Of a stretch of DNA of 64,000 bases, positions 15,431-62,392 are shown piece after piece. A model generated the notes under the pieces. It did no database searches. It saw only the letters and a list, made by a program, of their open reading frames with translations, and had not been told where the DNA came from. The translations under genes and the position numbers were made by a program. The stretch comes from an uncultured Eubacteriales bacterium (lineage in GTDB: Bacteria > Bacillota > Clostridia > Lachnospirales > JAISER01). The stretch is taken from assembly GCA_964500895.1 (NCBI GenBank), contig CAZCQP010000002.1, positions 1,812 to 65,811 on the forward strand. The letters are read 5' to 3'. Each line of letters starts with the position of its first letter. The first letter of the stretch is position 1.

Positions 15431-18400
15431 GGAATCATCGCCCTTCCCTTGCGAGGGACGACTGTTGCCCCGGTTCTTATGTGTCCGCTCCTGTAATATT
15501 TCAATCCACGTCCCCTTGCGGGGGACGACTTTCATTTTAACTCTAATTGATTTATGTTTAAAATTTCAATCCACGTCCCCTTGCGGGGGACGACGGGTTT
15601 TTTGCAAGACAATAAAGTCAAATTGATTATTTAAATCCACGTCCCCTTGCGGGGGACGACGGTACACCTCTTTTCATAAATTTTAAATTCGTAAATTTAA
15701 ATCCACGTCCCCTTGCGGGGGACGACGGCCCCAATTTTATCCGCTGGCATATCCTTTGTTTATTTCAATCCACGTCCCCTTGCGGGGGACGACCCGTGCG
15801 GCTTCCCGTTCATCGTCCGTTTGAGCTTATTTCAATCCACGTCCCCTTGCGGGGGACGACCCCTCGTAGTCCTTGTTGATGACAAAGTCCTGTCCATTTC
15901 AATCCACGTCCCCTTGCGGGGGACGACTTGGTGGCATCAATACCATCACGCACAACAGCGGAATTTCAATCCACGTCCCCTTGCGGGGGACGACCACCCA
16001 CACCGTTGCCCTGGTTTTGCTTGGCTTGCAATTTCAATCCACGTCCCCTTGCGGGGGACGACAACATTTCTTCCATTGTTAGACCGGGAAAACATTATTT
16101 CAATCCACGTCCCCTTGCGGGGGACGACCCATTACGGAGGTACAGCTTTTTGATACAAATAACATTTCAATCCACGTCCCCTTGCGGGGGACGACATGCC
16201 CGTTGACCTGGCCCCGCCGAGGGCAGGGAGTATTTCAATCCACGTCCCCTTGCGGGGGACGACGCAATAAGTCCAAGCAATTGCGCAATGGGTGGAAATT
16301 TCAATCCACGTCCCCTTGCGGGGGACGACATGGCTGTTTTTAACTATTCCAATGATTTTTGCATTTCAATCCACGTCCCCTTGCGGGGGACGACTGGATG
16401 TAATTAACGCTAATGCCAGGTGGGACAGCATTTCAATCCACGTCCCCTTGCGGGGGACGACACTGGGCGCGGACGGCTGGGTGGGGGACTTTTATAATTT
16501 CAATCCACGTCCCCTTGCGGGGGACGACCCAAACAGGCAAGGAAATAACCATAGGCGCAAAGGATTTCAATCCACGTCCCCTTGCGGGGGACGACGGGTG
16601 CGCCCGGCGCAACTAAAATCCACCTATCCCCATTTCAATCCACGTCCCCTTGCGGGGGACGACGTCCTCACTCTTCCACTTTCTGATGCGACTTTCGGAT
16701 TTCAATCCACGTCCCCTTGCGGGGGACGACCCGAGTGTACCAGACCGTCGCCGATGAGGATGATTGATTTCAATCCACGTCCCCTTGCGGGGGACGACTG
16801 TCCTGGAGTTACTGATATCGGCATATCTAGCACATTTCAATCCACGTCCCCTTGCGGGGGACGACAATGTAACCTCTTGCGCTCTTGTACAAATTTTGGT
16901 TATTTCAATCCACGTCCCCTTGCGGGGGACGACATCTTATCCTGCGCTTTGAGCCGTCCTTCAAAAAATTTCAATCCACGTCCCCTTGCGGGGGACGACT
17001 TTTGTTTTGTTGCTACGCTGAACTCGTTCTTCTATTTCAATCCACGTCCCCTTGCGGGGGACGACAGTTTCTATTGGTGATGTATACTACAACCAATCTA
17101 TTTCAATCCACGTCCCCTTGCGGGGGACGACGTCCTCACTCTTCCACTTTCTGATGCGACTTTCGGATTTCAATCCACGTCCCCTTGCGGGGGACGACTA
17201 TGGGGCCTGTCCAATCAGCTGGGGTTTAACGATATTTCAATCCACGTCCCCTTGCGGGGGACGACGACGATGGATGATGACCGTTTGGAACTACTGAAAC
17301 ATTTCAATCCACGTCCCCTTGCGGGGGACGACGGGTCGGATTATACGCTACCGAATGTATTAAACATTTCAATCCACGTCCCCTTGCGGGGGACGACACA
17401 ATAAAATACATACCCTTCCCCTTTGGGCGAATTTCAATCCACGTCCCCTTGCGGGGGACGACGATACGGCGGCCATACAGATGTTCTTTACACGTATATT
17501 TCAATCCACGTCCCCTTGCGGGGGACGACTATTCGTCTGGAGCAAATTCTTCCTGGTCGATATTAATTTCAATCCACGTCCCCTTGCGGGGGACGACCAA
17601 GCAGGGGGATAGCAATAGATACTAAGCTCTTTATTTCAATCCACGTCCCCTTGCGGGGGACGACTGTTCTGTTTATTAATACTCCGTAATTTCAACAATT
17701 TCAATCCACGTCCCCTTGCGGGGGACGACCATTTCAAAAGGGTAAGCTAATGGAGGCGATATTCTATTTCAATCCACGTCCCCTTGCGGGGGACGACACT
17801 ATGCTATCTAAGTATAATCAAAAAAAAACAAGATTTCAATCCACGTCCCCTTGCGGGGGACGACTCTTCGCTCATGTCATTTGATATAAATATTTTTATT
17901 TCAATCCTCGTCCCCTTGCGGGGGACGACTGACGATGCTGCCGTTATACCGGGCGTTATGCTATTTCAATCCACGTCCCCTTGCGGGGGACGACGACCAC
18001 TTCATCTTGTGGCATGACCTTGAGGCCATTTCAATCCACGTCCCCTTGCGGGGGACGACATTAGACGGGCAATGGAGGTACAATCGCCTAGTCAATTTCA
18101 ATCCACGTCCCCTTGCGGGGGACGACCCGGATGGACTTGCTACCGGTTGAGGTCAAAGAATTTCAATCCACGTCCCCTTGCGGGGGACGACGGTAAATCA
18201 TAATGGTCTTCGTCATCTATAATAATTTCAATCCACGTCCCCTTGCGGGGGACGACATTCCTGTGGCAAACTCACTTAACGTCTCAACAGATATTTCAAT
18301 CCACGTCCCCTTGCGGGGGACGACATAAGCTCTACAGCATGGCTAAGTACGCCATCAGCAATTTCAATCCACGTCCCCTTGCGGGGGACGACTTAATGAC

Positions 18401-21400
18401 CAAGGTATCCCTAGGTTAATTGACCTATTTCAATCCACGTCCCCTTGCGGGGGACGACAACGTTTAAGCACTGCATTTCCAAATATAATCCCATTTCAAT
18501 CCACGTCCCCTTGCGGGGGACGACTGTAGGATGGGCTGCGTTTTTAAGCGAAATCAAGATTTCAATCCACGTCCCCTTGCGGGGGACGACTTCAATTTGT
18601 TTTGTTCGGACAATTTGTCAACAGATTTCAATCCACGTCCCCTTGCGGGGGACGACTTTATTCGGGGTATTAAACAAATCAAGCTCATTAGCATTTCAAT
18701 CCACGTCCCCTTGCGGGGGACGACAATGCCATAGCCTTTAATATCGGCCATGGCATTTTATTTCAATCCACGTCCCCTTGCGGGGGACGACGTTTGGGGA
18801 TGCGGTTAAGGGCTTGCATTTGTACGATTTCAATCCACGTCCCCTTGCGGGGGACGACGCCTGATTACATGAAAACGCAGGAGCGACTGAATATTTCAAT
18901 CCACGTCCCCTTGCGGGGGACGACTGAACCGTGGCCAGTACGACAATACCGACCAATATATTTCAATCCACGTCCCCTTGCGGGGGACGACAAATATCGG
19001 CCGAACTGGCGTAAGCAGTTATAATATTTCAATCCACGTCCCCTTGCGGGGGACGACATCGTGCCCCCGAAGCCGGTGCCCAGGTAATTAAAAATTTCAA
19101 TCCACGTCCCCTTGCGGGGGACGACCACTTGCAACCCATGACTGCCAAGCAAAAGCCGGAGATTTCAATCCACGTCCCCTTGCGGGGGACGACTGGCTGT
19201 AACATTGGCATCATTGATGACCCCATTAAATTTCAATCCACGTCCCCTTGCGGGGGACGACACCACTCATAAGCCAATTCAAAAATGCAAGTTGCTATTT
19301 CAATCCACGTCCCCTTGCGGGGGACGACAGTTGCTGGACGAATGATTGATATAATTTCAGATATTTCAATCCACGTCCCCTTGCGGGGGACGACAGTTTG
19401 CGCCGACAATCGTAATATGACCGCCGGGATTTCAATCCACGTCCCCTTGCGGGGGACGACGAAACCGACACCGTATTAACGGCAACCTACGAAAACATTT
19501 CAATCCACGTCCCCTTGCGGGGGACGACACCAGTACAGATTGCCTATGTATCTTGCAGATGGATTTCAATCCACGTCCCCTTGCGGGGGACGACGATAGC
19601 ATAACACAGGTTGACGTTCGCCGAGTAAAATTTCAATCCACGTCCCCTTGCGGGGGACGACCTCTGCCATTTCTCATGTATGGCGTCGCCTTCTGCATTT
19701 CAATCCACGTCCCCTTGCGGGGGACGACCCAATCTGGGCTTTTACGTCAACTTGCCTTTCTTATTTCAATCCACGTCCCCTTGCGGGGGACGACAACGAG
19801 GATAGGCTACATAACAAACACAAACGAGCATTTCAATCCACGTCCCCTTGCGGGGGACGACTGGGTTTAAAATCCTCTCAAGCAAGTTTTTGTTTGATTT
19901 CAATCCACGTCCCCTTGCGGGGGACGACTAACATCGAGATGGCATTAGCAAAAGGTGACAAGATTTCAATCCACGTCCCCTTGCGGGGGACGACCTTTTG
20001 TTCAAAGTAACAACTTTTTGTTTACAAGATTTCAATCCACGTCCCCTTGCGGGGGACGACCTCATTGCTGCTTGTCAACGCAGGGTTGTTAACTATTTCA
20101 ATCCACGTCCCCTTGCGGGGGACGACAGCTTACATAGTAGCGCCTATCACCGGAGAAACTATTATTTCAATCCACGTCCCCTTGCGGGGGACGACGAAAG
20201 CAACCCAAAAGCGCCGGTTACTGTATTCAAATTTCAATCCACGTCCCCTTGCGGGGGACGACCTTGCGCTATTTTGTAATTTAAGCGCTGACTGTTCGAT
20301 TTCAATCCACGTCCCCTTGCGGGGGACGACTGCTTAGTTCGTAGCAATCTTCTCCCAAATCGCTATTTCAATCCACGTCCCCTTGCGGGGGACGACTGGA
20401 GGCGCTTAGCGATAAATATGCCGCACTGCAAATTTCAATCCACGTCCCCTTGCGGGGGACGACAATTCTGGCGCTATCAATGCATTGAACTTTAACGATA
20501 TTTCAATCCACGTCCCCTTGCGGGGGACGACGCCAGCAAGTCGACTACAATATCACGGAACACCTCTAGTCGATTTCAATCCACGTCCCCTTGCGGGGGA
20601 CGACACATAAATACGCTGGGGCTTACCTCCTACATCTGGATTTCAATCCACGTCCCCTTGCGGGGGACGACGACGAAGAACCTCGTCAACCAGCATAGCC
20701 TCTTTATTTCAATCCACGTCCCCTTGCGGGGGACGACAATTACCTGTCCTGCTTATTGTTGGATTTTGAGAATATTTCAATCCACGTCCCCTTGCGGGGG
20801 ACGACTCCACGCCTTTTGCCTGACCGTTTGCTCCATTGATTTCAATCCACGTCCCCTTGCGGGGGACGACCCCTTCATCCCTATAAATGTGCTCATCAAA
20901 AATTATTTCAATCCACGTCCCCTTGCGGGGGACGACAAGGCTTTTATGTTTTACATTCCATTCCCGTCAAATTTCAATCCACGTCCCCTTGCGGGGGACG
21001 ACGTAGTTTTGCCGGTGTTAAAAATTCGATTGGTGCAATTTCAATCCACGTCCCCTTGCGGGGGACGACAAGCCTGTCAAATCTGTGGGGGCGTTTTTCA
21101 AGGTATTTCAATCCACGTCCCCTTGCGGGGGACGACAATGTCGATGTCAAACAAGGCTTTAGTGGTCATGATTTCAATCCACGTCCCCTTGCGGGGGACG
21201 ACAGTATTCTTCGCTTGCTGTTGGCAGGCCCTTAACAATTTCAATCCACGTCCCCTTGCGGGGGACGACACGGTTTTAAATTTATCAAGCGTATCCCTCA
21301 ACAATTTCAATCCACGTCCCCTTGCGGGGGACGACATCTATGGATACACCATCAGATAGTATGGTTTTGCATTTCAATCCACGTCCCCTTGCGGGGGACG

Positions 21401-24400
21401 ACGGGTAGGCGCTGGTGCAGAGACGCTTCCTGGCGATATTTCAATCCACGTCCCCTTGCGGGGGACGACCAGACAAGTCATATTGCAGCAATGACTTTGG
21501 GTTATTTCAATCCACGTCCCCTTGCGGGGGACGACCGCCCCGCCATAAGGTAGGGGCTATAATTATATACCATTTCAATCCACGTCCCCTTGCGGGGGAC
21601 GACGGCCATCTTCCAGCAAGTGCGTTAGCCACGGGATGATTTCAATCCACGTCCCCTTGCGGGGGACGACCCAACTGGGTTAACGAGTGTGTCTTTATCT
21701 ATGTTATTTCAATCCACGTCCCCTTGCGGGGGACGACCTTTTAAGTCCTTAGTTATGTGCAACCCTGTTTATTTCAATCCACGTCCCCTTGCGGGGGACG
21801 ACATAAGTCTAACTTTGTTCTCGTGGTTTCTATCAAGATTTCAATCCACGTCCCCTTGCGGGGGACGACCATAACCTCCATAACCCAAATGCAAGAGCGA
21901 GAGCAATTTCAATCCACGTCCCCTTGCGGGGGACGACGCTTGCGCTTCGTTATTTGCGCGTTCTACAGCTTATTTCAATCCACGTCCCCTTGCGGGGGAC
22001 GACTCTGGTTAACATGCGTATCGCTCCTTGTTAGTTTTATTTCAATCCACGTCCCCTTGCGGGGGACGACGCGGATTATTTTGTCGGGGTTATTTATCAT
22101 TAACATTTCAATCCACGTCCCCTTGCGGGGGACGACAATGCCGACTGTAACGGCAGTTACAATATTATTAATTTCAATCCACGTCCCCTTGCGGGGGACG
22201 ACATGGCTTTACATTTAAGCAAAAAGCACGACATAAATTTCAATCCACGTCCCCTTGCGGGGGACGACAAGGTGCGTCCGTTCCGTCCTCATCTATATCC
22301 CAGCATTTCAATCCACGTCCCCTTGCGGGGGACGACTAGCCACCAAAAGATTGTGTTGCTTTTTGAGATAAATTTCAATCCACGTCCCCTTGCGGGGGAC
22401 GACATTTTACCCCTTTCGGCTGTGCAGCCCTTATAAATTTCAATCCACGTCCCCTTGCGGGGGACGACTTGATACTGGTTGCCTTTAATAGCCGTTATTT
22501 TGTATTTCAATCCACGTCCCCTTGCGGGGGACGACTTAGGCTAATGGATGTAATGGGTAAGGGTTGTAATATTTCAATCCACGTCCCCTTGCGGGGGACG
22601 ACTTAGGCGGCAAGACGTTTTTTGAAAAGGCAGTAGAAATTTCAATCCACGTCCCCTTGCGGGGGACGACCTCAACGCTGTTATTACTGTCATGCGTCAA
22701 AACATTTCAATCCACGTCCCCTTGCGGGGGACGACTATTTTGTCGATTATGTTTGGAACTTTATTTCCATTTCAATCCACGTCCCCTTGCGGGGGACGAC
22801 TTTAACTTCAAAGTTTCATAGTTGTCGAGTATTACATTTCAATCCACGTCCCCTTGCGGGGGACGACGTCGCTATCGCAACCCATCCTGCTTGCGCAAGT
22901 GTATTTCAATCCACGTCCCCTTGCGGGGGACGACTCTTTTATCTGGTCCCTTAAGGCTTGTTGCTCATCAATTTCAATCCACGTCCCCTTGCGGGGGACG
23001 ACGTTGGCTTGCTTATGTAATTGTGTCAAACAACAAAGATTTCAATCCACGTCCCCTTGCGGGGGACGACCAAAAACAAAAAACCAGGTTTCAGTTATCC
23101 TCTATTTCAATCCACGTCCCCTTGCGGGGGACGACCCACCACTACTGTCCAATCTTCCTGGATGAGCAATTTCAATCCACGTCCCCTTGCGGGGGACGAC
23201 TCAAGTAGATACCACAAGGATTTTTAGCCAGTATATTTCAATCCACGTCCCCTTGCGGGGGACGACTGGCAGTGAGAGGCGGGGAAATTTCGGTTTGCGA
23301 TATTTCAATCCACGTCCCCTTGCGGGGGACGACTACAACAGGCTTAAATCACTTATGCTGCATGCCAATTTCAATCCACGTCCCCTTGCGGGGGACGACT
23401 AAGGCGCATGAGGCCAACAGAGCAGCCAGAAAATTTCAATCCACGTCCCCTTGCGGGGGACGACTGCAGTAGGATTTAAGCTGGGCTTCAAGGTCTTTGA
23501 TTTCAATCCACGTCCCCTTGCGGGGGACGACGGGTAAGGGTAAGGGTTGTAATGGGGGAGGGAGGATTTCAATCCACGTCCCCTTGCGGGGGACGACGCC
23601 TTGCCGCCAAAGATAACCCATTGCTGTTTAAATTTCAATCCACGTCCCCTTGCGGGGGACGACCCATGTGCCTATTGTTAACCGTGGCAATAGCTTTTAT
23701 TTCAATCCACGTCCCCTTGCGGGGGACGACTAAAGCGTTGCCAATTTCAACCTGTATTTCTTCTATTTCAATCCACGTCCCCTTGCGGGGGACGACTTAA
23801 CTAAAAATTTAAACAGGTGGTGCATTTAATATTTCAATCCACGTCCCCTTGCGGGGGACGACCACACAAGTAACACGCAAGTAACACGCTTAGTAGAATT
23901 TCAATCCACGTCCCCTTGCGGGGGACGACAGCGATTGCTGACATAAGACAATACTTTTCATCAATTTCAATCCACGTCCCCTTGCGGGGGACGACAGCAG
24001 CACTCGTATAATAAACTCCAGCGTACTGGATTTCAATCCACGTCCCCTTGCGGGGGACGACATGTTTTCTTGCGAAATAACGTCCTGTGCTGTTTTATTT
24101 CAATCCACGTCCCCTTGCGGGGGACGACTAAGTCTGGATAAAGAAATTATAAAAACCGGATTTATTTCAATCCACGTCCCCTTGCGGGGGACGACCATCA
24201 AGTCTGGTGTATCAATCTTAAGATTTTTTATTTCAATCCACGTCCCCTTGCGGGGGACGACTCACTGTCGGCCGCATACCCGTTTATGGACGATATTTCA
24301 ATCCACGTCCCCTTGCGGGGGACGACCCCTGCCCCTGAAATTTTTTCTGCTATTGCCATCGATTTCAATCCACGTCCCCTTGCGGGGGACGACGAAATTA

Positions 24401-27400
24401 AGCCTAACGAAGACCGTGAGCTTGGAATTTCAATCCACGTCCCCTTGCGGGGGACGACATTTTTTACCGGCATTGCCGGGGATTACCAAAGCAATTTCAA
24501 TCCACGTCCCCTTGCGGGGGACGACTAAGGCTTTTATGTTTTACATTCCATTCCCGTCAAATTTCAATCCACGTCCCCTTGCGGGGGACGACGGTGTCCG
24601 TGAGCAACATAAAAGCCGCCCTGCATATAATTTCAATCCACGTCCCCTTGCGGGGGACGACTGAAATTAAGCCTAACGAAGACCGTGAGCTTGGAATTTC
24701 AATCCACGTCCCCTTGCGGGGGACGACTCCGCTCGTTGTTTTGTCGTTACTAATTTTTATCATTTCAATCCACGTCCCCTTGCGGGGGACGACATCCATA
24801 GATACTCCAATGCAAGCCTCAATAAATATTTCAATCCACGTCCCCTTGCGGGGGACGACCCAAAGTCCGCCCCGTCTGGCACTACATCTGCTGGATTTCA
24901 ATCCACGTCCCCTTGCGGGGGACGACGCCCTTGAATATTATTCTACTTCCGTTCGGGAACTTATTTCAATCCACGTCCCCTTGCGGGGGACGACCAGAGC
25001 AATACAATACGCTCTTAGGGCTTCCTGCTATTTCAATCCACGTCCCCTTGCGGGGGACGACTCGGAACGAAGCTTATCGATATGCCGTACTGGTTATTTC
25101 AATCCACGTCCCCTTGCGGGGGACGACCGATGCTCTCAAGCGATTCATTCACTGCTTCTTCATTTCAATCCACGTCCCCTTGCGGGGGACGACATAAACG
25201 AGTTCGGGTTTCCTGTTATTAGCAAAGAATTTCAATCCACGTCCCCTTGCGGGGGACGACTGATTCAGAGGCAAGCAATCCTAATTTGCTAACGATTTCA
25301 ATCCACGTCCCCTTGCGGGGGACGACAAAGCTTAACGAAACTACAGTGACGGCCGCACAAATGATTTCAATCCACGTCCCCTTGCGGGGGACGACCGCAG
25401 AACAGTATTGGTCGTGGATTTGTTGATTTTATTTCAATCCACGTCCCCTTGCGGGGGACGACTGATATAATTGCTCGCTACCTCTTAATGCGTTATTATT
25501 TCAATCCACGTCCCCTTGCGGGGGACGACTGACGAAAACAACAACATTAAAGCAGGGTTTAAAATTTCAATCCACGTCCCCTTGCGGGGGACGACAAATT
25601 CTACAACCGCAACGATTGACCGCAGAATCAATTTCAATCCACGTCCCCTTGCGGGGGACGACGGGCGCAACCAAGGGCGAGCTAAAAGCGAATTACAAAT
25701 TTCAATCCACGTCCCCTTGCGGGGGACGACTTCTGCCGCACCTTTTTTGCCAAGCGCTTCACGGAAATTTCAATCCACGTCCCCTTGCGGGGGACGACCC
25801 TTTCCATAACGATAATCGGCCTAGCGCATCCGTATTTCAATCCACGTCCCCTTGCGGGGGACGACGATGACACCGGGCAAGGGTAATTTCTTCCGTATTT
25901 CAATCCACGTCCCCTTGCGGGGGACGACCACAGCAGATAGCGCAGAGCCACGTACAATTAATATTTCAATCCACGTCCCCTTGCGGGGGACGACGTTTGA
26001 CGAGTGTATGAGGGTTTTGAAACCCAATGATTTCAATCCACGTCCCCTTGCGGGGGACGACGTAAAGGGCAATAATAGCCAAACATTTGCCATAACGATT
26101 TCAATCCACGTCCCCTTGCGGGGGACGACTTGTCACAGCTTGACATTGCAAAGATTGAGCTTGACATTTCAATCCACGTCCCCTTGCGGGGGACGACGAC
26201 GCAAGTTGATGTTGATACCGATATTTTAAACATTTCAATCCACGTCCCCTTGCGGGGGACGACATTGGGACACAGCTTCAAAACTGCTGCTGCGGCATTA
26301 TTTCAATCCACGTCCCCTTGCGGGGGACGACGTGTTGCGTTCGCTCAAAACGTTCCAAACTTAACGGATTTCAATCCACGTCCCCTTGCGGGGGACGACC
26401 ACAAGGCGTTTACAATTCAGCAACGCCTATAGAGAATTTCAATCCACGTCCCCTTGCGGGGGACGACAAGCCAAGCAGCCACTTTAGCCGCCGAATATAG
26501 AAATTTCAATCCACGTCCCCTTGCGGGGGACGACATTTGATTCCGCTGATGATGCTATGGCCGAAACTATTTCAATCCACGTCCCCTTGCGGGGGACGAC
26601 ATGGTTACACGCAGTACGCATAAGGAGGCAGGGATATTTCAATCCACGTCCCCTTGCGGGGGACGACAAATGCGTTTGATTTGCCGCCAGATTATTTTCA
26701 ATTTCAATCCACGTCCCCTTGCGGGGGACGACATAAATGGCTGAAACTCACTGGAAAAAACTTAATTTCAATCCACGTCCCCTTGCGGGGGACGACTTGG
26801 TCATGGAGCTGTTAACCTTCCGCCCGCTAGTTTCTGTATCTACGTCGCCTTGTGGGGGTCTAGTATGTTTATTGGGTTTGGAGTACAAAAAAATTTCAAT
26901 TTCAATCCACGTCCCCTTGCGGGGGACGACGCTTCGTCAATTTCGGCTTGTAGTTGTTCGGTTTATTTCAATCCACGTCCCCTTGCGGGGGACGACACTA
27001 GCAGCCGGTGGAATTATTTTATAAGCGAAAAATTTCAATCCACGTCCCCTTGCGGGGGACGACGTGTCATAATCGGCATATTTAGCTTGTTCTTGTTATT
27101 TCAATCCACGTCCCCTTGCGGGGGACGACTAATTGCGTTTGCTGTGATGGCCGCATCATCTGTAGATTTCAATCCACGTCCCCTTGCGGGGGACGACGCC
27201 ACTTGTCAATCTCTGCTTGTGCGTCATCAACATTTCAATCCACGTCCCCTTGCGGGGGACGACCCCCGTCAATTTTTGCTGATCCGGCAACATACGTATT
27301 TCAATCCACGTCCCCTTGCGGGGGACGACCATTGACCAACCGTTCTGACCGAGATTATATTGTATTTCAATCCACGTCCCCTTGCGGGGGACGACCCATA

Positions 27401-28463
27401 TGGCAAATAATTATAGAGGTGATTACATGATATTTCAATCCACGTCCCCTTGCGGGGGACGACAATGTAACTTGGCTAAAGCCACGAATGCGGTTTGATA
27501 TTTCAATCCACGTCCCCTTGCGGGGGACGACAATAAATCACATCCAATTGTTTGTTTCTATTGTGCATTTCAATCCACGTCCCCTTGCGGGGGACGACGG
27601 CGTTATATTGTGCGGTGCTTGTAGTAAAAAACATTTCAATCCACGTCCCCTTGCGGGGGACGACGTTCAATGTAAATCATTAGCAAGTCATCAGACAAAA
27701 TTTCAATCCACGTCCCCTTGCGGGGGACGACTTCGCCCATCGAGCAAGGTCTTTTGTTATTTGCATTTCAATCCACGTCCCCTTGCGGGGGACGACGGGT
27801 GGAGCCAGTGGGAGAGTTTTAACACAATCGGATTTCAATCCACGTCCCCTTGCGGGGGACGACTTTCCTGTAATTTTTTCAAGCTCTGCGGAAAGTTTTA
27901 TTTCAATCCACGTCCCCTTGCGGGGGACGACGGCACGATTATCACCAACCCTTCACATTTACAAAATTTCAATCCACGTCCCCTTGCGGGGGACGACCCT
28001 CATGGGCTGCCGATGCCTGGGCCTGGGGAAAAATTTCAATCCACGTCCCCTTGCGGGGGACGACAATCGAAAAAGGCCCAAGCTACTGCTATTTCGGCGA
28101 TTTCAATCCACGTCCCCTTGCGGGGGACGACATTGCAATGTCACGGAGTTGCCCGAAACAGCAATATTTCAATCCACGTCCCCTTGCGGGGGACGACTTG
28201 TGACGCCACTTTTAGCCTAAACAACAGCATTATTTCAATCCACGTCCCCTTGCGGGGGACGACGACATGATTGGAGACACCAATGATTTGCTTGGTGGTA
28301 TTTCAATCCACGTCCCCTTGCGGGGGACGACTAATTGTCAATAGGTAAATTTGATTATTTATATGATTTCAATCCACGTCCCCTTGCGGGGGACGACTGA
28401 GGCAAGGGACGAATTGCAAGCATTGAAACAGATTTCAATCCACGTCCCCTTGCGGGGGACGAC
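15431..28463 (-). CRISPR. Type I-C-like CRISPR array, 196 repeats (32 bp) and 195 spacers
   Basis: Plus-strand repeat is ATTTCAATCCACGTCCCCTTGCGGGGGACGAC; the minus strand reads GTCGTCCCCCGCAAGGGGACGTGGATTGAAAT. I listed every repeat start by hand, from 15431 to 28432, with spacing of 63-73 bp. Spacers are mostly 33-36 nt. The degenerate terminal repeat at 15431-15462 and the AT-rich leader next to cas2 set the polarity. Confidence 0.97.
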
Positions 28464-28632
28464 AGCAAAAATGCATACATTTAACTATCATTCAAGCAAA
28501 TAAACATACAACAATTACAAAAAACACCTATGACCAAGACAAAACGCCAATTTCCAAGCATGGCAATACCCCAAAACACCTTAATTTCCAGTGCGAAAGA
28601 TGCCCCAAAACCATGTACGCTTAAGGTTCGCA
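28464..28632 (-). promoter_or_regulatory. CRISPR leader
   Basis: 169-bp AT-rich, non-coding segment between the cas2 stop codon and the first (newest) repeat. Contains an internal 35-bp imperfect tandem duplication. Confidence 0.7.
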
Positions 28633-28923
28633 CTACACCATTAAAATGCCCTCCACGTCAAACCCTGGCTTAGCCCCAACATGGGTCACTTTCGTTTTGT
28701 AATTGTTTCCCAAGTTGTAAAAGCGCAGGCTATCCTTTTCCGCATCAATGAGCGCTTCCAGCTTGTGCTTCACCTCGGCCAACTGGGTTGCGTCCAGCAC
28801 GCATTCAAAAACTGAATTTTGAACCCTCTGCCCGTAATTGACACACTGTTTAGCCACCTGCCGCAGCCGTTTGCGCCCCTGGGCTGTTTCTGTGTTCACA
28901 TCATAAGTAATTAAAACAAGCAT
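28633..28923 (-). CDS. cas2: CRISPR-associated endoribonuclease Cas2
   Basis: 96 aa starting MLVLITYDV, a ferredoxin-like Cas2 pattern. The track ORF (148 aa) extends upstream into cas1, so I use the internal start. Confidence 0.9.
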   Translation of the reverse strand: MLVLITYDVNTETAQGRKRLRQVAKQCVNYGQRVQNSVFECVLDATQLAEVKHKLEALIDAEKDSLRFYNLGNNYKTKVTHVGAKPGFDVEGILMV

Positions 28924-28931
28924 CTGTTCAC

Positions 28932-29963
28932 CTACTTCCACAAAAATGGTGGATACGCCTCTAAGTCGCCCCGCAAATGCCGGGCCAGCAGCATGGCTTG
29001 CACGTGAGGCACTAATCCCCACTGTATTTTTTCTTCCAAAAACGGATGGGTAATGGTTTCCTGTTTGCGGGCTTGCCACGCACTTAGAAATGCTTTGCGT
29101 GCGGCATCATCCATAATGACGGCGCCATTTTCCTTTACGGTGAACCCTTTGGCATGAACTTCCCGCTTGTTAATGAGGGAAAGCACAAATCGGTCGGCCA
29201 GGATAGGGCGCATTTCTTCCATTAAATCCAGCGCAAGAGAGATGCGCCCGGGGCGGTCTCGGTGCAAAAAGCCCACGTAGGGGTCTAGCCCAACCCCTTC
29301 TAGCGCCGATGCTACATCGTTTGCCAGCATGGTGTACGCAAAGGAAAGCAGCGCATTCACTTTATCCAAAGGCGGTCTTCGGCTGCGGGTGTGAAATTGA
29401 AAGTCCTCTTTTTGCTGCAAAATCAACTGGTCTATGACACCAAAATACCGAGTGGCACTTTCGCCTTCCAGGCCACGCAATTGCTCAAGGTTTTCACAGT
29501 CTTTGATGGCATCTGTAGATTTTTTAATGAGTGCAGAAGCCTTTTTTAATTGCTCAACGTCAACCCGGGCGGCGTGGTCCCGGGTGGCCCGCTCTATGAC
29601 CCAGCGTGCATTATACAGCTTGCCGATAATCATGTTTTGTGCAATGAACAGGGACTGCTGCTCGTCATCTGAAACCCTGTACTGCTTTTTGCGCAGCAAC
29701 ACATTGCCATGCACTTCCCCCACAATGCGTGCCTGAAACCGGCCGCTGGGGCTTAAAAAGCAAAGGGCAATATTTTTTGCGGCACAGGCCCGCATGAGCG
29801 CTGGGCTTGCGCCTGTGTAGCCAAAAGTTACAATGCTTTCAACATTATGTAAAGGCAAACGGATGACTTCCTGCTCCTCTTTTCGCACGACGATGTTTTC
29901 CCCGTCTAAAGAAAGATAGTGTTCAGGGGTTGTGATATACAACGTGTTCAGCAATTTTCTCAT
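28932..29963 (-). CDS. cas1: CRISPR-associated endonuclease Cas1 (I-C type)
   Basis: 343 aa. N-terminus MRKLLNTLYITTPEHYLSLDGENIVV and conserved C-terminal region (FGYTGASP, LDLMEEMRP). Overlaps cas4 by 4 nt. Confidence 0.92.
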   Translation of the reverse strand: MRKLLNTLYITTPEHYLSLDGENIVVRKEEQEVIRLPLHNVESIVTFGYTGASPALMRACAAKNIALCFLSPSGRFQARIVGEVHGNVLLRKKQYRVSDDEQQSLFIAQNMIIGKLYNARWVIERATRDHAARVDVEQLKKASALIKKSTDAIKDCENLEQLRGLEGESATRYFGVIDQLILQQKEDFQFHTRSRRPPLDKVNALLSFAYTMLANDVASALEGVGLDPYVGFLHRDRPGRISLALDLMEEMRPILADRFVLSLINKREVHAKGFTVKENGAVIMDDAARKAFLSAWQARKQETITHPFLEEKIQWGLVPHVQAMLLARHLRGDLEAYPPFLWK

Positions 29964-30625
29964 GCGTCTGCCTCCCCAATTCTTGTTTGAATATAGTGGG
30001 CCACGGATGCCTTTTTCAGCATTTTAGGAAGGCAAAAGTCCGCCAACGAGCAGGACTTACAGGCTTTGTTAGGCTTACACTTGGGTGTGTGCCCCCGTTG
30101 GTAATGCTGGTGCATTTCTTTCAGCATGTCCTTAGCGGTTTGGCGTAGGGTTTGGGTGAAGGCGACTGGCAGCCTGCGCCTTGTTTCGCCGTAAAACAAA
30201 TAGCCTTCCTGAATATCACAGACAAACATTTCCTCTAAACATAATGCTTGTGCGCACAATTGCAGTTCGTCTGCGTCATTTTGCTTTGGTGCGCCTCGCT
30301 TATACTCCACCGGCACCACACGGTATGTACCATCCCGGCCATGAATGGTGATGCCACTTGCATCTTTCCAAAGCTCCACCACATCGCAGACACCGGATAT
30401 GCCCAGATCCCGGGACATCACCGGCATACTGCGGGTGATCAGCACATCGCCCCGCTTTTCCACAGAAGCTTCATGGGCTTTTTCGTGCAGAAATCTGCCT
30501 TCAAGGGTGAGCACATTTTCCTTCCATGCCTGTTCAACGTGAATCAGCCCCCACTGGCGGCGGCAAAAGGCAAAATGTTGTATGCCCGATAACGGGAGAA
30601 AGTCTTCTTCGTTAAACATCATCAA
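29960..30625 (-). CDS. cas4: CRISPR-associated exonuclease Cas4
   Basis: 221 aa. RecB-like motif (VPVEYKRG), N-terminal Cys (HFAFCRRQW) and C-terminal Cys cluster CKPNKACKSCSLADFC. Confidence 0.9.
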   Translation of the reverse strand: MMMFNEEDFLPLSGIQHFAFCRRQWGLIHVEQAWKENVLTLEGRFLHEKAHEASVEKRGDVLITRSMPVMSRDLGISGVCDVVELWKDASGITIHGRDGTYRVVPVEYKRGAPKQNDADELQLCAQALCLEEMFVCDIQEGYLFYGETRRRLPVAFTQTLRQTAKDMLKEMHQHYQRGHTPKCKPNKACKSCSLADFCLPKMLKKASVAHYIQTRIGEADA

Positions 30626-30784
30626 CCATCCTTAACAGTGGAACCCCCAACGTTTAATCCGCATTGATATAGCATAATTTTACACCAGTTACCATTATTA
30701 TACAACAAAAAATGCATGTATCCATTATCAGTAAAACCTGGTATAATTCTGCCAACCAATTTAATTGAAGGGAAGATAAGCGTG

Positions 30785-31357
30785 ATGCAACTGCTCTTAT
30801 TGTGCGACGGGCAAAGCCAGGACTTTTGCGGCTGCAACCTTGGAGAAGCGGCTGCCGAAGCAGCCCAAAAAGTAGGTTTTGAAACAAAGCGTTTATTGTT
30901 GGATTTTGACCACATACAACCGTGCGTGGGCTGCTTTGACTGTTGGGTGAAGACCCCCGGCCTTTGCATACAAACAAAAGACAACGCCAACAGCATTTGC
31001 CGTGATTTTGCCCGCAGTGATGCGGTGCTACTGCTTTCTAAAGTGACCTACGGCAGCCATAGCCCGGACGTTAAGGCTATGCTGGACCGTATCATTCCCA
31101 ATGCATTGCCATTTTTTGAAACGGTGGAAGGGGAAATGCACCACCCCAAACGCTATGCCAAAGTTCCCAACTGGATTGCTTTTGGCTACGGCAACATGAC
31201 GGATGAAGAAGCGGATACCTTTGCAGCGCTGACGGTGCGCAACAGCCTGCACTTCCACCCACCAAAACGCTGCACCTTGCTCACCCGCAGCGCAGCAGAT
31301 TTACCCCAAGCGTTAGAGGGCTTACAGGCTTTTTTAAAAGAGGAGGGAACAAAATGA
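30785..31357 (+). CDS. Flavodoxin-like / NAD(P)H-dependent FMN reductase family protein
   Basis: Flavodoxin-fold pattern including CVGCFDCWVKTPGLC. Start chosen at MQLLLLCDG. Divergent from cas4. Confidence 0.6.
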   Translation: MQLLLLCDGQSQDFCGCNLGEAAAEAAQKVGFETKRLLLDFDHIQPCVGCFDCWVKTPGLCIQTKDNANSICRDFARSDAVLLLSKVTYGSHSPDVKAMLDRIIPNALPFFETVEGEMHHPKRYAKVPNWIAFGYGNMTDEEADTFAALTVRNSLHFHPPKRCTLLTRSAADLPQALEGLQAFLKEEGTK

Positions 31358-31998
31358 GACGCATTGTAGCCATTAACGGCAGCCCAAAAACCAAAGGGGT
31401 ATCGGCCATGCTTTTGGAACAGCTAGGCGGCCGCCTTCAAGGGAAGCTGGAAATAGAACAAGCCATGAAGCTGCTGAAAACCCCGGAAAAGCTGGCAGAC
31501 ATCCTTTCTGCCGACTGCCTGCTTATTGTGTACCCCCTTTATGTGGATGCCCTGCCTGCACCCCTTCTAAAAGTGCTAACCTTGCTGGAGGAAGCGGCCC
31601 AAACAGTAGCCCAAGACCAGCCCCTGCCAAAGGTTTATGCCCTGTGCAATTGCGGCTATGCAGAGCCACAGCAAATAAGCCTGTCTTTTAAAATGCTTCA
31701 ACATTTTTGCAGCAGGGCCGGGTTAACCTGGCAGCAGGGTGTGGCCATTGGTGCAGGTGGGTTTTTACAGCCCAAAATGAAAGATTTGACTAAAGGCCCC
31801 ACAAAACCAATTGCCCAGGCGCTGGATGCTTTAGCCAAAGCCGTCGATGGCCGGGAAGTGCCCAGCGGCCAGAACGTCTTTACAGCCCCACAAATTCCAC
31901 TGTTTATATACAAGGTAGGGGCCACCCTGTCCTGGCACATTGCAGCCCGGAAAAATGGGGCCAGCGGAAAGCTGAAAGCCAGGCCACACATGGAATGA
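31354..31998 (+). CDS. Flavodoxin-like / NAD(P)H-dependent oxidoreductase
   Basis: N-terminus MRRIVAINGSPKTKGVS is typical of the FMN-reductase fold. Overlaps the upstream gene by 4 nt. Confidence 0.6.
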   Translation: MRRIVAINGSPKTKGVSAMLLEQLGGRLQGKLEIEQAMKLLKTPEKLADILSADCLLIVYPLYVDALPAPLLKVLTLLEEAAQTVAQDQPLPKVYALCNCGYAEPQQISLSFKMLQHFCSRAGLTWQQGVAIGAGGFLQPKMKDLTKGPTKPIAQALDALAKAVDGREVPSGQNVFTAPQIPLFIYKVGATLSWHIAARKNGASGKLKARPHME

Positions 31999-57526: not shown

Positions 57527-57730
57527 ATGAACATGAAAAAAACAAAACAAAGCATGGTGCGTGTTAAGCGGTATGTGCAGGTGTTAACCCCTCAGGGGGA
57601 TGTGACCCGAACCATAGACTTGCAATCGGTTTCTAAAGAGGAAGAAGACAGGTGGCTGGCGTGCGTTTTTCAACAGGCAATGGAGCGGCTGGGGTATGCG
57701 CCTGTTGAAAGAGATGGGAAGGTTTTATAA
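57527..57730 (+). CDS. Hypothetical 67-aa protein immediately upstream of the recombinase
   Basis: ORF with RBS ggaagggg. Its end lies 13 nt before the recombinase start codon. Confidence 0.4.
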   Translation: MNMKKTKQSMVRVKRYVQVLTPQGDVTRTIDLQSVSKEEEDRWLACVFQQAMERLGYAPVERDGKVL

Positions 57731-57743
57731 GGAGGTTGCGCCC

Positions 57744-59216
57744 ATGGCCATTGCGGCGGTGTATATAAGGGTTTCCACCGAAGACCAAACCGAATTTTCC
57801 CCAGAAGCCCAGTTAAGGGCCATAGGGCAATATGCGGAAAAAAACGGATACACCATAGAGGAAGATTTTATTTTTAGAGACGAAGGCATTTCCGGCAGGC
57901 GTGCAGACAAACGCCCGGCCTTTCAAAAAATGGTGGCCATGGCTAAAAGGAAGCCAGCGCCTTTTCGGGTAATATTGGTGCATAAATTTGACCGTTTTGC
58001 TCGATCACGGGAAGACAGCATTGTGTATAAGTCTTTGTTGAAACGGGAGTGTAACATTAAAGTGGTGAGCATTACGGAACAGCTTGAAGACGACAAGTTT
58101 TCGGTCATCTTAGAAGCCATGTTGGAAGCCATGGCGGAATATTACAGCCTGAACTTGTCCGAGGAAGTGAAAAAAGGGATGACGGAAAAAGCACGGCGGG
58201 GAGAATTACAAACCCCGGCCCCTTTTGGCTATCGCATGGTGAACGGACTACTCACCCCCCAACCGGAAGAAGCAGAAATGGTGCGTGAAATTTTTAGGCT
58301 TTATGTGAACGAACGCTTGAACTTGCGGTCCATTGCCAAGCACATGAACGGGCAGGGCTGTAAAACGAAACAAGGGAACAGCTTTGACACCCGAAGCATC
58401 ACCTACATTTTGTGTAACCCCACATATACAGGCAAAATGCGCTGGACTCCCACCGGCCCGGCAGCCAGCAGGTTTCATTTTGATAACCCGGACACTTGGG
58501 TGCTGGAGGGCAAACATCCAGCCATTGTAGGGGAACAAATGTGGCAGGAGGCCAACCGGCGCATCCGAGCAGACAAAAAGCAGAAAATTCCCTTGTATAC
58601 ACGGGATGGCAACGTGCAGACCCACTGGCTGCGGGGGGTGTTGCGCTGTGGCCATTGCGGAACCACCCTGTCTTACGGGAAAGGAGCTGAAGGCAAGCAA
58701 GGGGCTTACCGATGCAGCAAATATTTAACCGGGGGGTGCCCACAACCCCAGCGCATCACCGTGGGCAAAGCGGAACAAGCGGTACTGGATGTTTTACAAA
58801 AAGATGGTGCAGCGGTGCCTCCCATAGTTTTCCAAAAAAACAATACCCATTTACAGGAACAACAAGACACATGGATGCGCTGTAAAAAAATGATCACCAA
58901 GCTGCAAGACCGGCTGGAAAAAGCACGGGAACTGGTGCTGGCGGGAATAGATACAACAGAAGAATATAGGCAAAACAAACTAAAGATAGAGCAGCAAATG
59001 AAGGAAACCATAGAAAAAATGCAGACCATAGAACAGCAGCAAAAGATGCAGCAGGAAGAAAGGGAAGAAAAAAGGGTTGGTTCGGTGGCAGATATTCTGT
59101 TATCCCAAGCCAGCTTGACAGAAAAAAACAATGCCATCCGGCAATTGGTAAGTCAAATGGTTTATGATAAACAAAATGAAACGTTAGATATTTATTATTA
59201 TGCAGTAGAAACATAA
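57744..59216 (+). mobile_element. Large serine recombinase (resolvase N-domain + recombinase domain + zinc ribbon + coiled coil)
   Basis: N-terminus MAIAAVYIRVSTEDQ carries the catalytic Ser motif. Also has FDRFARS, a recombinase domain, a Cys-rich ribbon (CGHCGTTLSYG...YRCSKYLTGGC) and a Q/E-rich coiled coil. Start chosen behind RBS aaggagg. Confidence 0.88.
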
Positions 59217-59220
59217 ACCT

Positions 59221-59236
59221 TGGCATGAAATATGCA
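59221..59236 (+). promoter_or_regulatory. Candidate sigma-54 (-24/-12) promoter
   Basis: TGGCAT-gaaat-ATGCA against consensus TGGCAC-N5-TTGCW, with correct GG-N10-GC spacing. Lies 41 nt upstream of the next start codon. Confidence 0.5.
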
Positions 59237-59276
59237 TGTATAAACCAGCAGAGAAAAATTAGAAGGAGAGATACAA

Positions 59277-60038
59277 ATGAATCATATCATTGAAAGATTA
59301 AAAACATTACAGGGGCACACAGGATTTTATTATAAAAATATGGTTACGGGGGAAACATTGGCCTATCAGGAAAACGACACCTTTACCCCGGCCAGCATCA
59401 TTAAGCTGCCCATGCTTATGCAAATTTTTCGCATGGCGGCCAAAGGGGAAGCGGATTTAACTGAACGCATTAAAATCCGGCATGAAGACAAGGTGCCTAG
59501 TTGCGGGGCGCTTAACAGATTTACCGATGAGCCGGTGGTGGATATACGCACCTTATGCAACCTGATGACAATCATTAGCGACAACACCGCCACCAACGTG
59601 CTCATTTCCCATTACGGTACAGAGCGGCTGAATAAAGGCTTTGAGGAAATGGGCCTTGAAAAAACCAGAGTGAACCGGCGGTTATTTGATATGGAATCTG
59701 CCAGAAAAGGCATTTCAAACTATATAACGCCAAAAGAAATCGGTCAGCTATTGGAACAACTTTACAACCGTACTTTTGTGAATGAGGCCGTTTCACAAGA
59801 TATATTAAACATTTTACTGGAACAGCAGTTTGACCATAAAATTCCCGGCATGTTACCTCCCGGCACAAAGGTGGCCCACAAAACAGGGGAAGATGATGAC
59901 ATTTCCAACGATGTGGGCATTGTATACGCCAAAGCACCATTTGTGGTTTGCTTTGTGTCCAATAAAACCATCAACCATCCGTTTAATATGTTCATTCGGG
60001 AAACAACCTTAGAACTGTTTAACCAGTGCAATCAATGA
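59277..60038 (+). CDS. Class A beta-lactamase-related serine hydrolase
   Basis: 253 aa with SxxK (ASIIKLP), SDN (ISDNTATN) and KTG (HKTGED) motifs. No obvious signal peptide. Confidence 0.7.
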   Translation: MNHIIERLKTLQGHTGFYYKNMVTGETLAYQENDTFTPASIIKLPMLMQIFRMAAKGEADLTERIKIRHEDKVPSCGALNRFTDEPVVDIRTLCNLMTIISDNTATNVLISHYGTERLNKGFEEMGLEKTRVNRRLFDMESARKGISNYITPKEIGQLLEQLYNRTFVNEAVSQDILNILLEQQFDHKIPGMLPPGTKVAHKTGEDDDISNDVGIVYAKAPFVVCFVSNKTINHPFNMFIRETTLELFNQCNQ

Positions 60039-62002: not shown

Positions 62003-62379
62003 AGGCGGCCAGAAGTGTGACTGCCGATGGTATTACCAGCGCCGCCTCTGCCGTGGCCAATGGCCACCCATGCTACCCAATAGTTTGTACGTGCAACAGG
62101 TAGTCGGGGCGGCCAGTCGCCTAAGGTTAAGGCGGCTCAAGTATGTAAGCGGCCTGTGATGTCTGGCCGCCTTAGCGCTGGGCAAAGCCCAGCTTAAAAA
62201 CCGTAGAGAAGGCGGCCAGAAGTGTGACTGCCGATGGTATGCCAGCGCCGCCTCTGCCGTGGCCAATGGCCACCCATGCTACCCAAAAGTTCGTGCGTGC
62301 AGCAGGTAGCCAGGGCGGCCAGCAGCCAAAGGTTAAGGCGGCTCAAGTATGTAAGCGGCCTGTGATGTCTGGCCGCCTT
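62003..62379. repeat. Tandem pair (period 207 bp) of a ~171-bp GC-rich element with 11-12-nt terminal inverted repeats
   Basis: Unit 1 spans 62003-62173 and unit 2 spans 62209-62379. Each begins (A)AGGCGGCCAGA and ends TCTGGCCGCCTT. The first ~78 nt and last ~55 nt are nearly identical between units, while the central ~45 nt diverge. Confidence 0.85.
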
Positions 62380-62392
62380 AGCGATGCGCAGT

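What the first reader, a model, noticed from the sequence alone, without database searches (positions are those of the whole stretch)
20937..24695. Same protospacers acquired twice with a 1-nt length difference at the leader-distal end
Two spacer pairs show this. The spacer at 20937-20970 (aaggcttttatgttttacattccattcccgtcaa, 34 nt) recurs 54 units later at 24526-24560 with one extra t at the low-coordinate end (35 nt). The spacer at 24394-24426 (gaaattaagcctaacgaagaccgtgagcttgga, 33 nt) recurs 4 units later at 24662-24695, again with one extra t at the same end. Neighbouring spacers differ, so these are independent acquisitions and not segmental duplications. In both pairs the leader-proximal end, which is PAM-proximal in type I crRNAs, is fixed and the distal end varies. 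That fits Cas4-defined PAM-end processing with looser trimming of the other end. Repeated sampling of the same protospacer is also what primed adaptation or strong hot-spots produce. Priming would imply that an interference complex was present when these spacers were acquired.
Basis: partly seen in the sequence, partly recalled or inferred. Interest (0 to 1): 0.55.

Follow-up and report, generated by a model that had tools for sequence, protein, structure and literature searches.

The report
Repeat-sampled spacers in type I-C array
A very long type I-C CRISPR array holds three spacers that were each captured twice, and two of the pairs differ by one base at the end that the capture machinery is already known to trim loosely, so this is an ordinary, already described behaviour.

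Summary
Spacer 20937-20970 recurs at 24526-24560, and 24394-24426 recurs at 24662-24695. Each later copy has one extra T at the low-coordinate end. The neighbouring spacers are unrelated. A third pair, identical in length (16664-16698 and 17132-17166), was not mentioned.

The array has 195 32-nt repeats and 194 spacers and is read on the minus strand from a leader beside cas2-cas1-cas4. Cas1 matches the type I-C model.

In 51 other I-C arrays (1,517 spacers) I found 5 same-protospacer pairs of unequal length. All 5 share the leader-proximal end and none shares the distal end. With this window that makes 7 of 7.

No target was found in any collection, so the PAM, the identity of the extra base and priming remain untested.

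The effector genes cas3, cas5c, cas8c and cas7 are absent from the 64-kb window, although the closest relative checked (L002) has them directly upstream of cas4.

Verdict: real, explained and already known. Interest is low.

The parts
15431..28463 (-). Type I-C CRISPR array. It has 195 copies of a 32-nt repeat (minus strand GTCGTCCCCCGCAAGGGGACGTGGATTGAAAT) and 194 spacers of 31-41 nt (mode 35). A further degenerate terminal repeat lies at about 15431-15462, with one more spacer at 15463-15497.
   Evidence: 191 of 195 repeats are identical. Variant repeats are at 15629, 15695, 17898 and 26832.
28464..28632 (-). Leader, the A+T-rich stretch between the cas2 stop codon and the first repeat.
   Evidence: The same junction is present in an independent short-read contig, L001.
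28633..28923 (-). cas2 (96 aa)
   Evidence: TIGR01573 at 75 bits and PF09827 at 93 bits. The gene call on L001 is 96 aa.
28932..29963 (-). cas1, type I-C (343 aa)
   Evidence: TIGR03640 cas1_DVULG at 511.5 bits (cut-off 385), matched over its full length.
29960..30622 (-). cas4, standalone (220 aa)
   Evidence: TIGR00372 at 125.5 bits and PF01930. The gene call on L001 is 220 aa.
20937..20970 (-). Pair 1, older copy (unit 82 from the low end, 113th from the leader), 34 nt.
24526..24560 (-). Pair 1, newer copy (unit 136, 59th from the leader), 35 nt. It is the same sequence plus one base at the leader-distal 3' end (T on the plus strand, A in crRNA sense).
24394..24426 (-). Pair 2, older copy (unit 134, 61st from the leader), 33 nt.
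24662..24695 (-). Pair 2, newer copy (unit 138, 57th from the leader), 34 nt. It is the same sequence plus one base at the leader-distal 3' end.
16664..16698 (-). Pair 3, older copy, 35 nt. It is identical in sequence and length to 17132-17166.
17132..17166 (-). Pair 3, newer copy, 35 nt.

Best explanation
These are independent captures of the same protospacer sequence by a type I-C Cas4-Cas1-Cas2 adaptation complex. Cas4 cuts precisely next to the PAM, so the PAM-side end is identical in both copies. That end becomes the leader-proximal 5' end of the spacer in the crRNA. The other 3' end is trimmed by host exonucleases against the Cas1-Cas2 footprint. This ruler is imprecise and gives spacers of 33-37 nt, so two captures of one protospacer often differ by a base or two at the leader-distal end. 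That trimmed end is joined to the 5' end of the old repeat. Repeated capture reflects non-uniform sampling, either through acquisition hot-spots or through priming by an existing matching spacer. Shown here: the duplicates, the polarity of the array, the type I-C identity of the adaptation genes, and the generality of the pattern in other I-C arrays. Inferred: the PAM, that the extra base is copied from the target, and the enzymology, which is taken from published work on other I-C systems.
For: The duplicates are exact and their neighbours differ. Polarity is clear. cas4-cas1-cas2 and a 169-bp leader lie at the high end, and a degenerate terminal repeat lies at the low end. All 51 arrays downstream of related cas1-cas2 genes read GTC...GTGGATTGAAAT/C on the cas strand, with spacers mostly 33-37 nt. 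Cas1 passes the I-C-specific model. In the comparison set of 41,391 intra-array spacer pairs there are 7 identical duplicates, 5 length variants that share the 5' end and 0 that share the 3' end. The window adds 1 identical and 2 5'-anchored pairs. Seven of 7 gives a binomial p of 0.008. From the window's own length distribution, two independent captures would have the same length with probability 0.27 and differ by one base with probability 0.43. One same and two different is therefore what is expected. T is not over-represented as the first base of the longer spacers, which argues against untemplated addition. Rao et al. [quoted passage not shown] Dhingra et al. 2022 show that Cas4 processes only the PAM end, that the non-PAM end is probably trimmed by cellular exonucleases, and that it integrates at the leader-repeat junction (bioRxiv 10.1101/2022.05.30.494039).
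Against: No protospacer was found for any of the 194 spacers. It is therefore not shown that a TTC PAM flanks the fixed end or that the extra base matches the target. The two copies of a pair could come from two related elements rather than one. The effector genes needed for priming are not in the window.
Confidence: 0.85

Rival explanations
1. The duplicates mark primed (interference-driven) adaptation. The older pair-1 spacer (20937-20970) matched a returning invader, and Cascade-Cas3 fed fragments to Cas4-Cas1-Cas2. A burst of spacers was then acquired from that invader, including the same protospacer again and the pair-2 protospacer twice within five units.
For: Units 134, 136 and 138 interleave the two duplicated protospacers within five consecutive acquisitions. 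A matching spacer already existed 54 units deeper. Priming and hot-spots are documented in type I-C. Spacer G+C content shows a weak lag-1 autocorrelation along the array (0.115, p = 0.044), consistent with bursts from one source.
Against: No target is available, so the clustering and strand bias that define priming cannot be examined. No homologue of cas3, cas5c, cas8c or cas7 was found in the 64-kb window. Naive acquisition at a hot-spot during one prolonged encounter gives the same picture. There is no evidence that pairs 1 and 2 come from the same element.
Confidence: 0.3
2. A single repeat-spacer unit was copied by recombination or replication slippage within the array. A one-base indel then arose at the repeat-spacer junction.
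For: Adjacent identical duplicates that look like unit duplications do occur in other I-C arrays (L025 units 35/36 and 42/43, L036 2/3, L070 7/8). There is also a block duplication in L052 (units 20-21 and 23-24).
Against: The copies here are 4, 7 and 54 units apart, and none of the intervening or flanking spacers is duplicated. Unequal recombination copies contiguous blocks. It would require two separate indels, each exactly at the junction, both adding the same base on the same side. The 194 non-degenerate repeats of the array carry no indel.
Confidence: 0.03
3. The duplicates are an assembly artefact. Arrays of two co-existing strains, each having captured the protospacer once, were merged into one 13-kb consensus.
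For: The organism is known only from metagenomic data. The one public contig with the identical Cas1 is a 4.4-kb short-read contig in which the whole array is collapsed to a single repeat. This shows how hard the array is to assemble.
Against: The array has regular spacing, near-perfect repeats and no repeated blocks. A merge of two strain arrays would normally duplicate runs of shared older spacers, not three isolated units.
Confidence: 0.04
4. The two copies of a pair come from two different but related invaders, or from paralogous loci, that share the 33-34 nt sequence. They would then be separate samplings of homologous sites rather than re-sampling of one site.
For: Pair 1 is separated by 54 acquisitions, which suggests separate encounters. 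Other arrays hold near-duplicates with 1-2 mismatches that must come from variant targets (L015 43/52, L052 20/23, L031 1/2).
Against: The copies are identical over all 33-34 shared bases. This reading would not change the mechanism, which is a fixed PAM end and a variable distal end.
Confidence: 0.2

Closest known systems
Legionella pneumophila type I-C adaptation (Rao et al. 2017, RNA 23:1525, PMC5602111)
   Same: Both have a 32-nt repeat class and native spacers of 33-37 nt with a mode of 35. [quoted passage not shown] The window's length distribution (33-37 nt, mode 35) and its 5'-anchored duplicates match this.
   Different: That work used deep sequencing of laboratory acquisitions from a known plasmid, with the effector present and a known TTC PAM. 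Here the events are fixed in a natural array, the targets are unknown, and no effector genes lie nearby.
Type I-C Cas4-Cas1-Cas2 prespacer processing (Lee et al. 2019 eLife, PMC6519985; Dhingra et al. 2022, bioRxiv 10.1101/2022.05.30.494039)
   Same: The gene set is the same: standalone cas4, an I-C cas1 and cas2. Their model has Cas4 cutting only the PAM end, exonucleases trimming the non-PAM end, and the non-PAM end integrating at the leader-repeat junction. This predicts exactly the asymmetry seen here.
   Different: No biochemistry was done on this system. I did not compare its proteins with those studied in these papers.
Complete type I-C (Dvulg) loci of the nearest relatives (L002-L005; Clostridia-class metagenome-assembled genomes)
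   Same: Cas1 is 73-85% identical. In the four loci the repeat is 32-33 nt and ends in GTGGATTGAAAT, the array lies downstream of cas2, and L003 and L005 show the same spacer length range.
   Different: L002 carries cas3-cas5c-cas8c-cas7 directly upstream of cas4, confirmed by family models. L003-L005 have upstream ORFs of matching sizes and order. In the window cas4 is preceded by two divergently oriented FMN-reductase-like genes, and no homologue of the four effector genes was found anywhere in the 64 kb.

Membership tests
Type I-C CRISPR-Cas | Cas1 of the I-C clade | tested here: met
   TIGR03640 cas1_DVULG scores 511.5 bits against a cut-off of 385, with a full-length match.
Type I-C CRISPR-Cas | Standalone Cas4 and Cas2 next to Cas1 | tested here: met
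   TIGR00372 scores 125.5 bits and TIGR01573 scores 75.3 bits, in the gene order cas4-cas1-cas2-leader-array.
Type I-C CRISPR-Cas | A repeat of about 32 nt ending in GTGGATTGAAAT/C on the transcribed strand, with spacers of 33-37 nt | tested here: met
   The minus-strand repeat is GTCGTCCCCCGCAAGGGGACGTGGATTGAAAT. 51 arrays beside Cas1 relatives have the same architecture. BLAST hits fall on the arrays of the D. vulgaris Hildenborough megaplasmid. No Rfam CRISPR-DR family matched.
Type I-C CRISPR-Cas | Effector module cas3, cas5c, cas8c (csd1) and cas7 (csd2) | tested here: not met
   tblastn with all ORFs of at least 120 aa on the cas strand of 80 related loci gives no hit in the window outside cas4, cas1 and cas2, apart from unrelated housekeeping genes. 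The L002 query proteins were confirmed as Cas3, Cas5c, Cas8c and Cas7. Pfam annotation of the remaining ORFs of at least 140 aa shows only housekeeping genes. The rest of the genome was not available, so the genes may lie elsewhere.
Type I-C CRISPR-Cas | 5'-TTC PAM beside the leader-proximal end of protospacers | not testable with these tools
   No protospacer was found in phage or plasmid records, IMG/VR, JGI metagenomes, the window, the fetched loci or the protein collection.
Primed adaptation | A pre-existing spacer matching the element from which new spacers are taken | tested here: inconclusive
   The older pair-1 spacer predates its second copy by 54 units. Whether neighbouring spacers come from the same element is unknown.
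Primed adaptation | Cascade and Cas3 present | tested here: not met
   They are absent from the 64-kb window. The whole genome was not available.
Primed adaptation | New protospacers clustered around the priming site with a strand bias | not testable with these tools
   No target sequence was found.
Segmental duplication within a CRISPR array | A contiguous block of units copied, with copies identical including length | tested here: not met
   The neighbours of every duplicated unit are unrelated. Two of the three pairs differ in length.

The most novel reading that the evidence does not exclude
The locus may be an adaptation-only type I-C module (cas4-cas1-cas2 plus leader) that lost its effector genes yet kept adding spacers. 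On this reading the 194-spacer array with near-perfect repeats and fully redundant spacers records acquisition that is no longer filtered by interference. Spacers already matching the invader perfectly did not stop the same site from being captured again.
Probability: 0.12. Interest if true: 0.5.

Novelty: already known. Interest (0 to 1): 0.12.

Why it matters
The finding adds little. It is a clean natural example of a property of type I-C adaptation that has been measured in the laboratory: a precise PAM-side cut and an imprecise PAM-distal ruler. The small survey done here (7 of 7 unequal duplicates anchored at the PAM side across 52 arrays) shows that fixed natural arrays record the same asymmetry. 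Such duplicates could in principle be used to orient arrays, or to infer which end is PAM-defined in uncharacterised subtypes. The absence of effector genes next to a very long, well-kept array is the more interesting point. It cannot be judged from 64 kb.

Tried and rejected
1. Target search by DNA. I ran the whole array by megablast, and both halves by blastn, against 50,697 phage records. I ran the whole array by megablast and its leader-proximal part (20800-28463) by blastn against 72,556 plasmids. The only hits were to the repeats of other I-C arrays, plus chance hits.

I searched the full pair-1 and pair-2 spacers, both 20-nt halves of each, a 24-mer of pair 3 and a 24-mer of the newest spacer. 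Nothing was found.

3. JGI metagenome contigs. 24-mers of pair 1 and pair 2 gave nothing, so neither the targets nor this array are in that collection.

4. Self-targets. All spacers against the rest of the window and against the 81 fetched loci gave only chance matches of 12-18 nt.

5. Target search by protein. A concatenate of the open-frame peptides found 1 candidate, with E above 10. I then built an X-padded profile that keeps the seven peptides sharply defined. Local tests showed that exact matches to the five 11-residue peptides would score E of 0.3 or better at the collection's size; the two 10-residue peptides would be borderline (E about 4 and 13). The real search found 12 candidates and none with E of 10 or less.

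6. Other copies of the array. The exact Cas1 occurs only on one 4.4-kb Logan contig (SRR10912416), where the array is collapsed to one repeat. No strain comparison was possible.

7. Targets for the five unequal duplicates of the comparison arrays. There was no phage match.

8. Untemplated addition of T. This is rejected because T is not enriched as the first base of the longer spacers.

9. General sharing of short words between neighbouring spacers. There is none.

10. Rfam gave no CRISPR-DR match.
Full report
WHAT IS THERE

The finding lies inside a very large CRISPR array. A 32-nt repeat (plus strand ATTTCAATCCACGTCCCCTTGCGGGGGACGAC) occurs 195 times between 15498 and 28463. Of these, 191 copies are identical, three carry one substitution (15629, 15695, 17898) and one is badly degenerate (26832-26863, 10 mismatches in ungapped comparison). 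A further degenerate repeat at about 15431-15462 ends the array at the low-coordinate side. The 194 spacers are 31-41 nt long: 22 of 33 nt, 61 of 34, 69 of 35, 36 of 36 and 3 of 37.

POLARITY AND TYPE

Directly beyond the high-coordinate end lie a 169-bp A+T-rich leader (28464-28632) and, on the minus strand, three genes:
- cas2 (28633-28923; TIGR01573, 75 bits);
- cas1 (28932-29963; the I-C-specific model TIGR03640, 511.5 bits against a cut-off of 385);
- a standalone cas4 (29960-30622; TIGR00372, 125.5 bits).

Read on the minus strand, the repeat is GTCGTCCCCCGCAAGGGGACGTGGATTGAAAT. I fetched 80 loci around Cas1 relatives and parsed the array in 51 of them. All but one lie downstream of cas2. 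In every one the repeat on the cas strand has this form (GTC...GTGGATTGAAAT/C, mostly 32-33 nt), with spacers mostly 33-37 nt. The array is therefore transcribed on the minus strand and new spacers enter at the high-coordinate end. The low-coordinate end of each spacer is its leader-distal 3' end in the crRNA. In type I systems the PAM flanks the 5', leader-proximal end. This is established knowledge, and restates for I-C that the non-PAM end integrates at the leader-repeat junction.

THE OBSERVATION

Both pairs are exactly as described.
- Pair 1: 20937-20970 (34 nt) and 24526-24560 (35 nt), 54 units apart.
- Pair 2: 24394-24426 (33 nt) and 24662-24695 (34 nt), 4 units apart.

In each pair the copy nearer the leader has one more base at the leader-distal end (T on the plus strand, A in crRNA sense). 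There is also a third pair, 16664-16698 and 17132-17166. These are identical 35-mers 7 units apart.

No neighbour of any duplicated unit resembles the neighbour of its partner, so these are not block duplications. The 194 non-degenerate repeats have no indel. A one-base sequencing error falling exactly on the junction, twice, is therefore not credible.

IS THE PATTERN GENERAL?

The 51 comparison arrays hold 1,517 spacers and 41,391 intra-array pairs. Among these pairs I found:
- 7 identical duplicates;
- 5 duplicates of unequal length: L011 units 2/7 (33 and 36 nt), L015 58/72 (36 and 35), L022 12/13 (35 and 34), L027 38/40 (34 and 33) and L054 2/21 (37 and 33).

All five unequal pairs share the leader-proximal end, and none shares the distal end. 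With the two pairs in the window that makes 7 of 7 (binomial p = 0.008).

The duplicate rate in the window (3 in 18,721 pairs) is no higher than in the comparison set (12 in 41,391). From the window's own length distribution, two independent captures would have equal length with probability 0.27 and differ by one base with probability 0.43. One equal and two unequal pairs is what is expected.

T is not enriched as the first base of the longer spacers, so nothing suggests an untemplated addition.

MECHANISM

The asymmetry is the published behaviour of type I-C adaptation. Rao et al. [quoted passage not shown] They also found that native spacers are 33-37 nt with a mode of 35, and that a sequence-dependent hot-spot is sampled repeatedly. 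Dhingra et al. 2022 (bioRxiv 10.1101/2022.05.30.494039) showed three things:
- Cas4 cleaves only the PAM end;
- the non-PAM end is probably trimmed by cellular exonucleases;
- the trimmed non-PAM end integrates first, at the leader-repeat junction.

That last step places the non-PAM end next to the older repeat copy, which is the end that varies here. The best explanation is therefore two independent captures of one protospacer sequence, with a Cas4-fixed PAM end and a loosely trimmed distal end (confidence about 0.85).

WHAT COULD NOT BE TESTED

I found no target for any spacer in any of the following:
- phage and plasmid records;
- IMG/VR, using all eight scans;
- JGI metagenome contigs;
- the window itself and the fetched loci;
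- the 5.8-billion-protein collection, searched with a purpose-built profile. Local tests showed it would detect an exact match to the five 11-residue spacer-encoded peptides; the two 10-residue peptides were borderline.

The organism is an uncultured member of the Bacillota. The nearest Cas1 proteins, 84-85% identical, are from Defluviitaleaceae and Eubacteriales genomes assembled from SRP242652. The exact Cas1 occurs only on one short-read contig of SRR10912416, in which the array is collapsed to one repeat.

PRIMING

Units 134, 136 and 138 interleave the two duplicated protospacers, and a matching spacer for pair 1 already existed. This fits a primed burst. It fits repeated naive sampling of hot-spots during one encounter equally well.

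The closest relative (L002) has cas3-cas5c-cas8c-cas7 directly upstream of cas4, and L003-L005 have upstream ORFs of matching sizes and order. The window has no homologue of any of these four genes. Instead, cas4 is preceded by two divergent FMN-reductase-like genes, and the rest of the window is housekeeping. The same cas4 junction is present in the independent Logan contig. The effector genes may lie elsewhere in the genome, or they may have been lost after these spacers were acquired. Neither possibility can be settled from 64 kb.

VERDICT

Novelty: already known. Interest: low.

Noticed in passing
window 28633-31998, compared with L002-L005: The locus has only cas4-cas1-cas2. The effector genes cas3, cas5c, cas8c and cas7 sit directly upstream of cas4 in the closest relative checked (L002). 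They are missing here and have no homologue anywhere in the 64 kb. Two divergent FMN-reductase-like genes start about 90 bp from cas4. Even so, the array has 194 spacers and near-perfect repeats.
   Followed up: partly
window 16664-16698 and 17132-17166: There is a third same-protospacer pair: identical 35-nt spacers 7 units apart with unrelated neighbours. The finding did not mention it.
   Followed up: yes
window 24593-24629: This 37-nt spacer lies between the newer copies of pairs 1 and 2. It contains a 12-mer (AACATAAAAGCC) that is the reverse complement of part of its neighbour, pair 1. Directly before it is an 8-mer (CCGTGAGC) shared with its other neighbour, pair 2. The flanks do not align. 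About 1.4 chance 12-mers are expected across the whole array, but the adjacency is odd (post hoc p roughly 0.001). I have no explanation.
   Followed up: partly
window 26797-26898: One repeat deep inside the array (about 26830-26863, roughly 24 units from the leader) is heavily degenerate and about 2 nt longer. On the minus strand it ends in ...GATACAGAAAC, like a terminal repeat. This may be the scar of an old array end or of recombination with another array. All three duplicate pairs lie on the older side of it.
   Followed up: no
window 22536-22570 and 23532-23565: Two spacers share a 16-mer (GGGTAAGGGTTGTAAT) but diverge on both sides of it. This suggests targets with a repeated or variant motif rather than one site.
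   Followed up: no
window pairs plus L011, L015, L022, L027 and L054: In 6 of the 7 unequal-length duplicates the copy nearer the leader (the newer one) is the longer. This is not significant (two-sided p = 0.125), and I know of no mechanism for it.
   Followed up: partly
L015 units 71/79 and L031 units 1/2: Other I-C arrays show the other published acquisition errors. One is a near-exact capture of a single site in opposite orientations (a flip with a 1-nt shift). The other is a pair shifted by one base at the PAM side, in which the longer start adds a C, as expected for a -1 slip from a TTC PAM.
   Followed up: no
window 57696-60038: A large serine recombinase gene is followed by a class A beta-lactamase-family gene, with a 206-bp tandem repeat (1.9 copies, 62003-62390) about 2 kb further on. 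This may be a small mobile insertion and is unrelated to the array.
   Followed up: no
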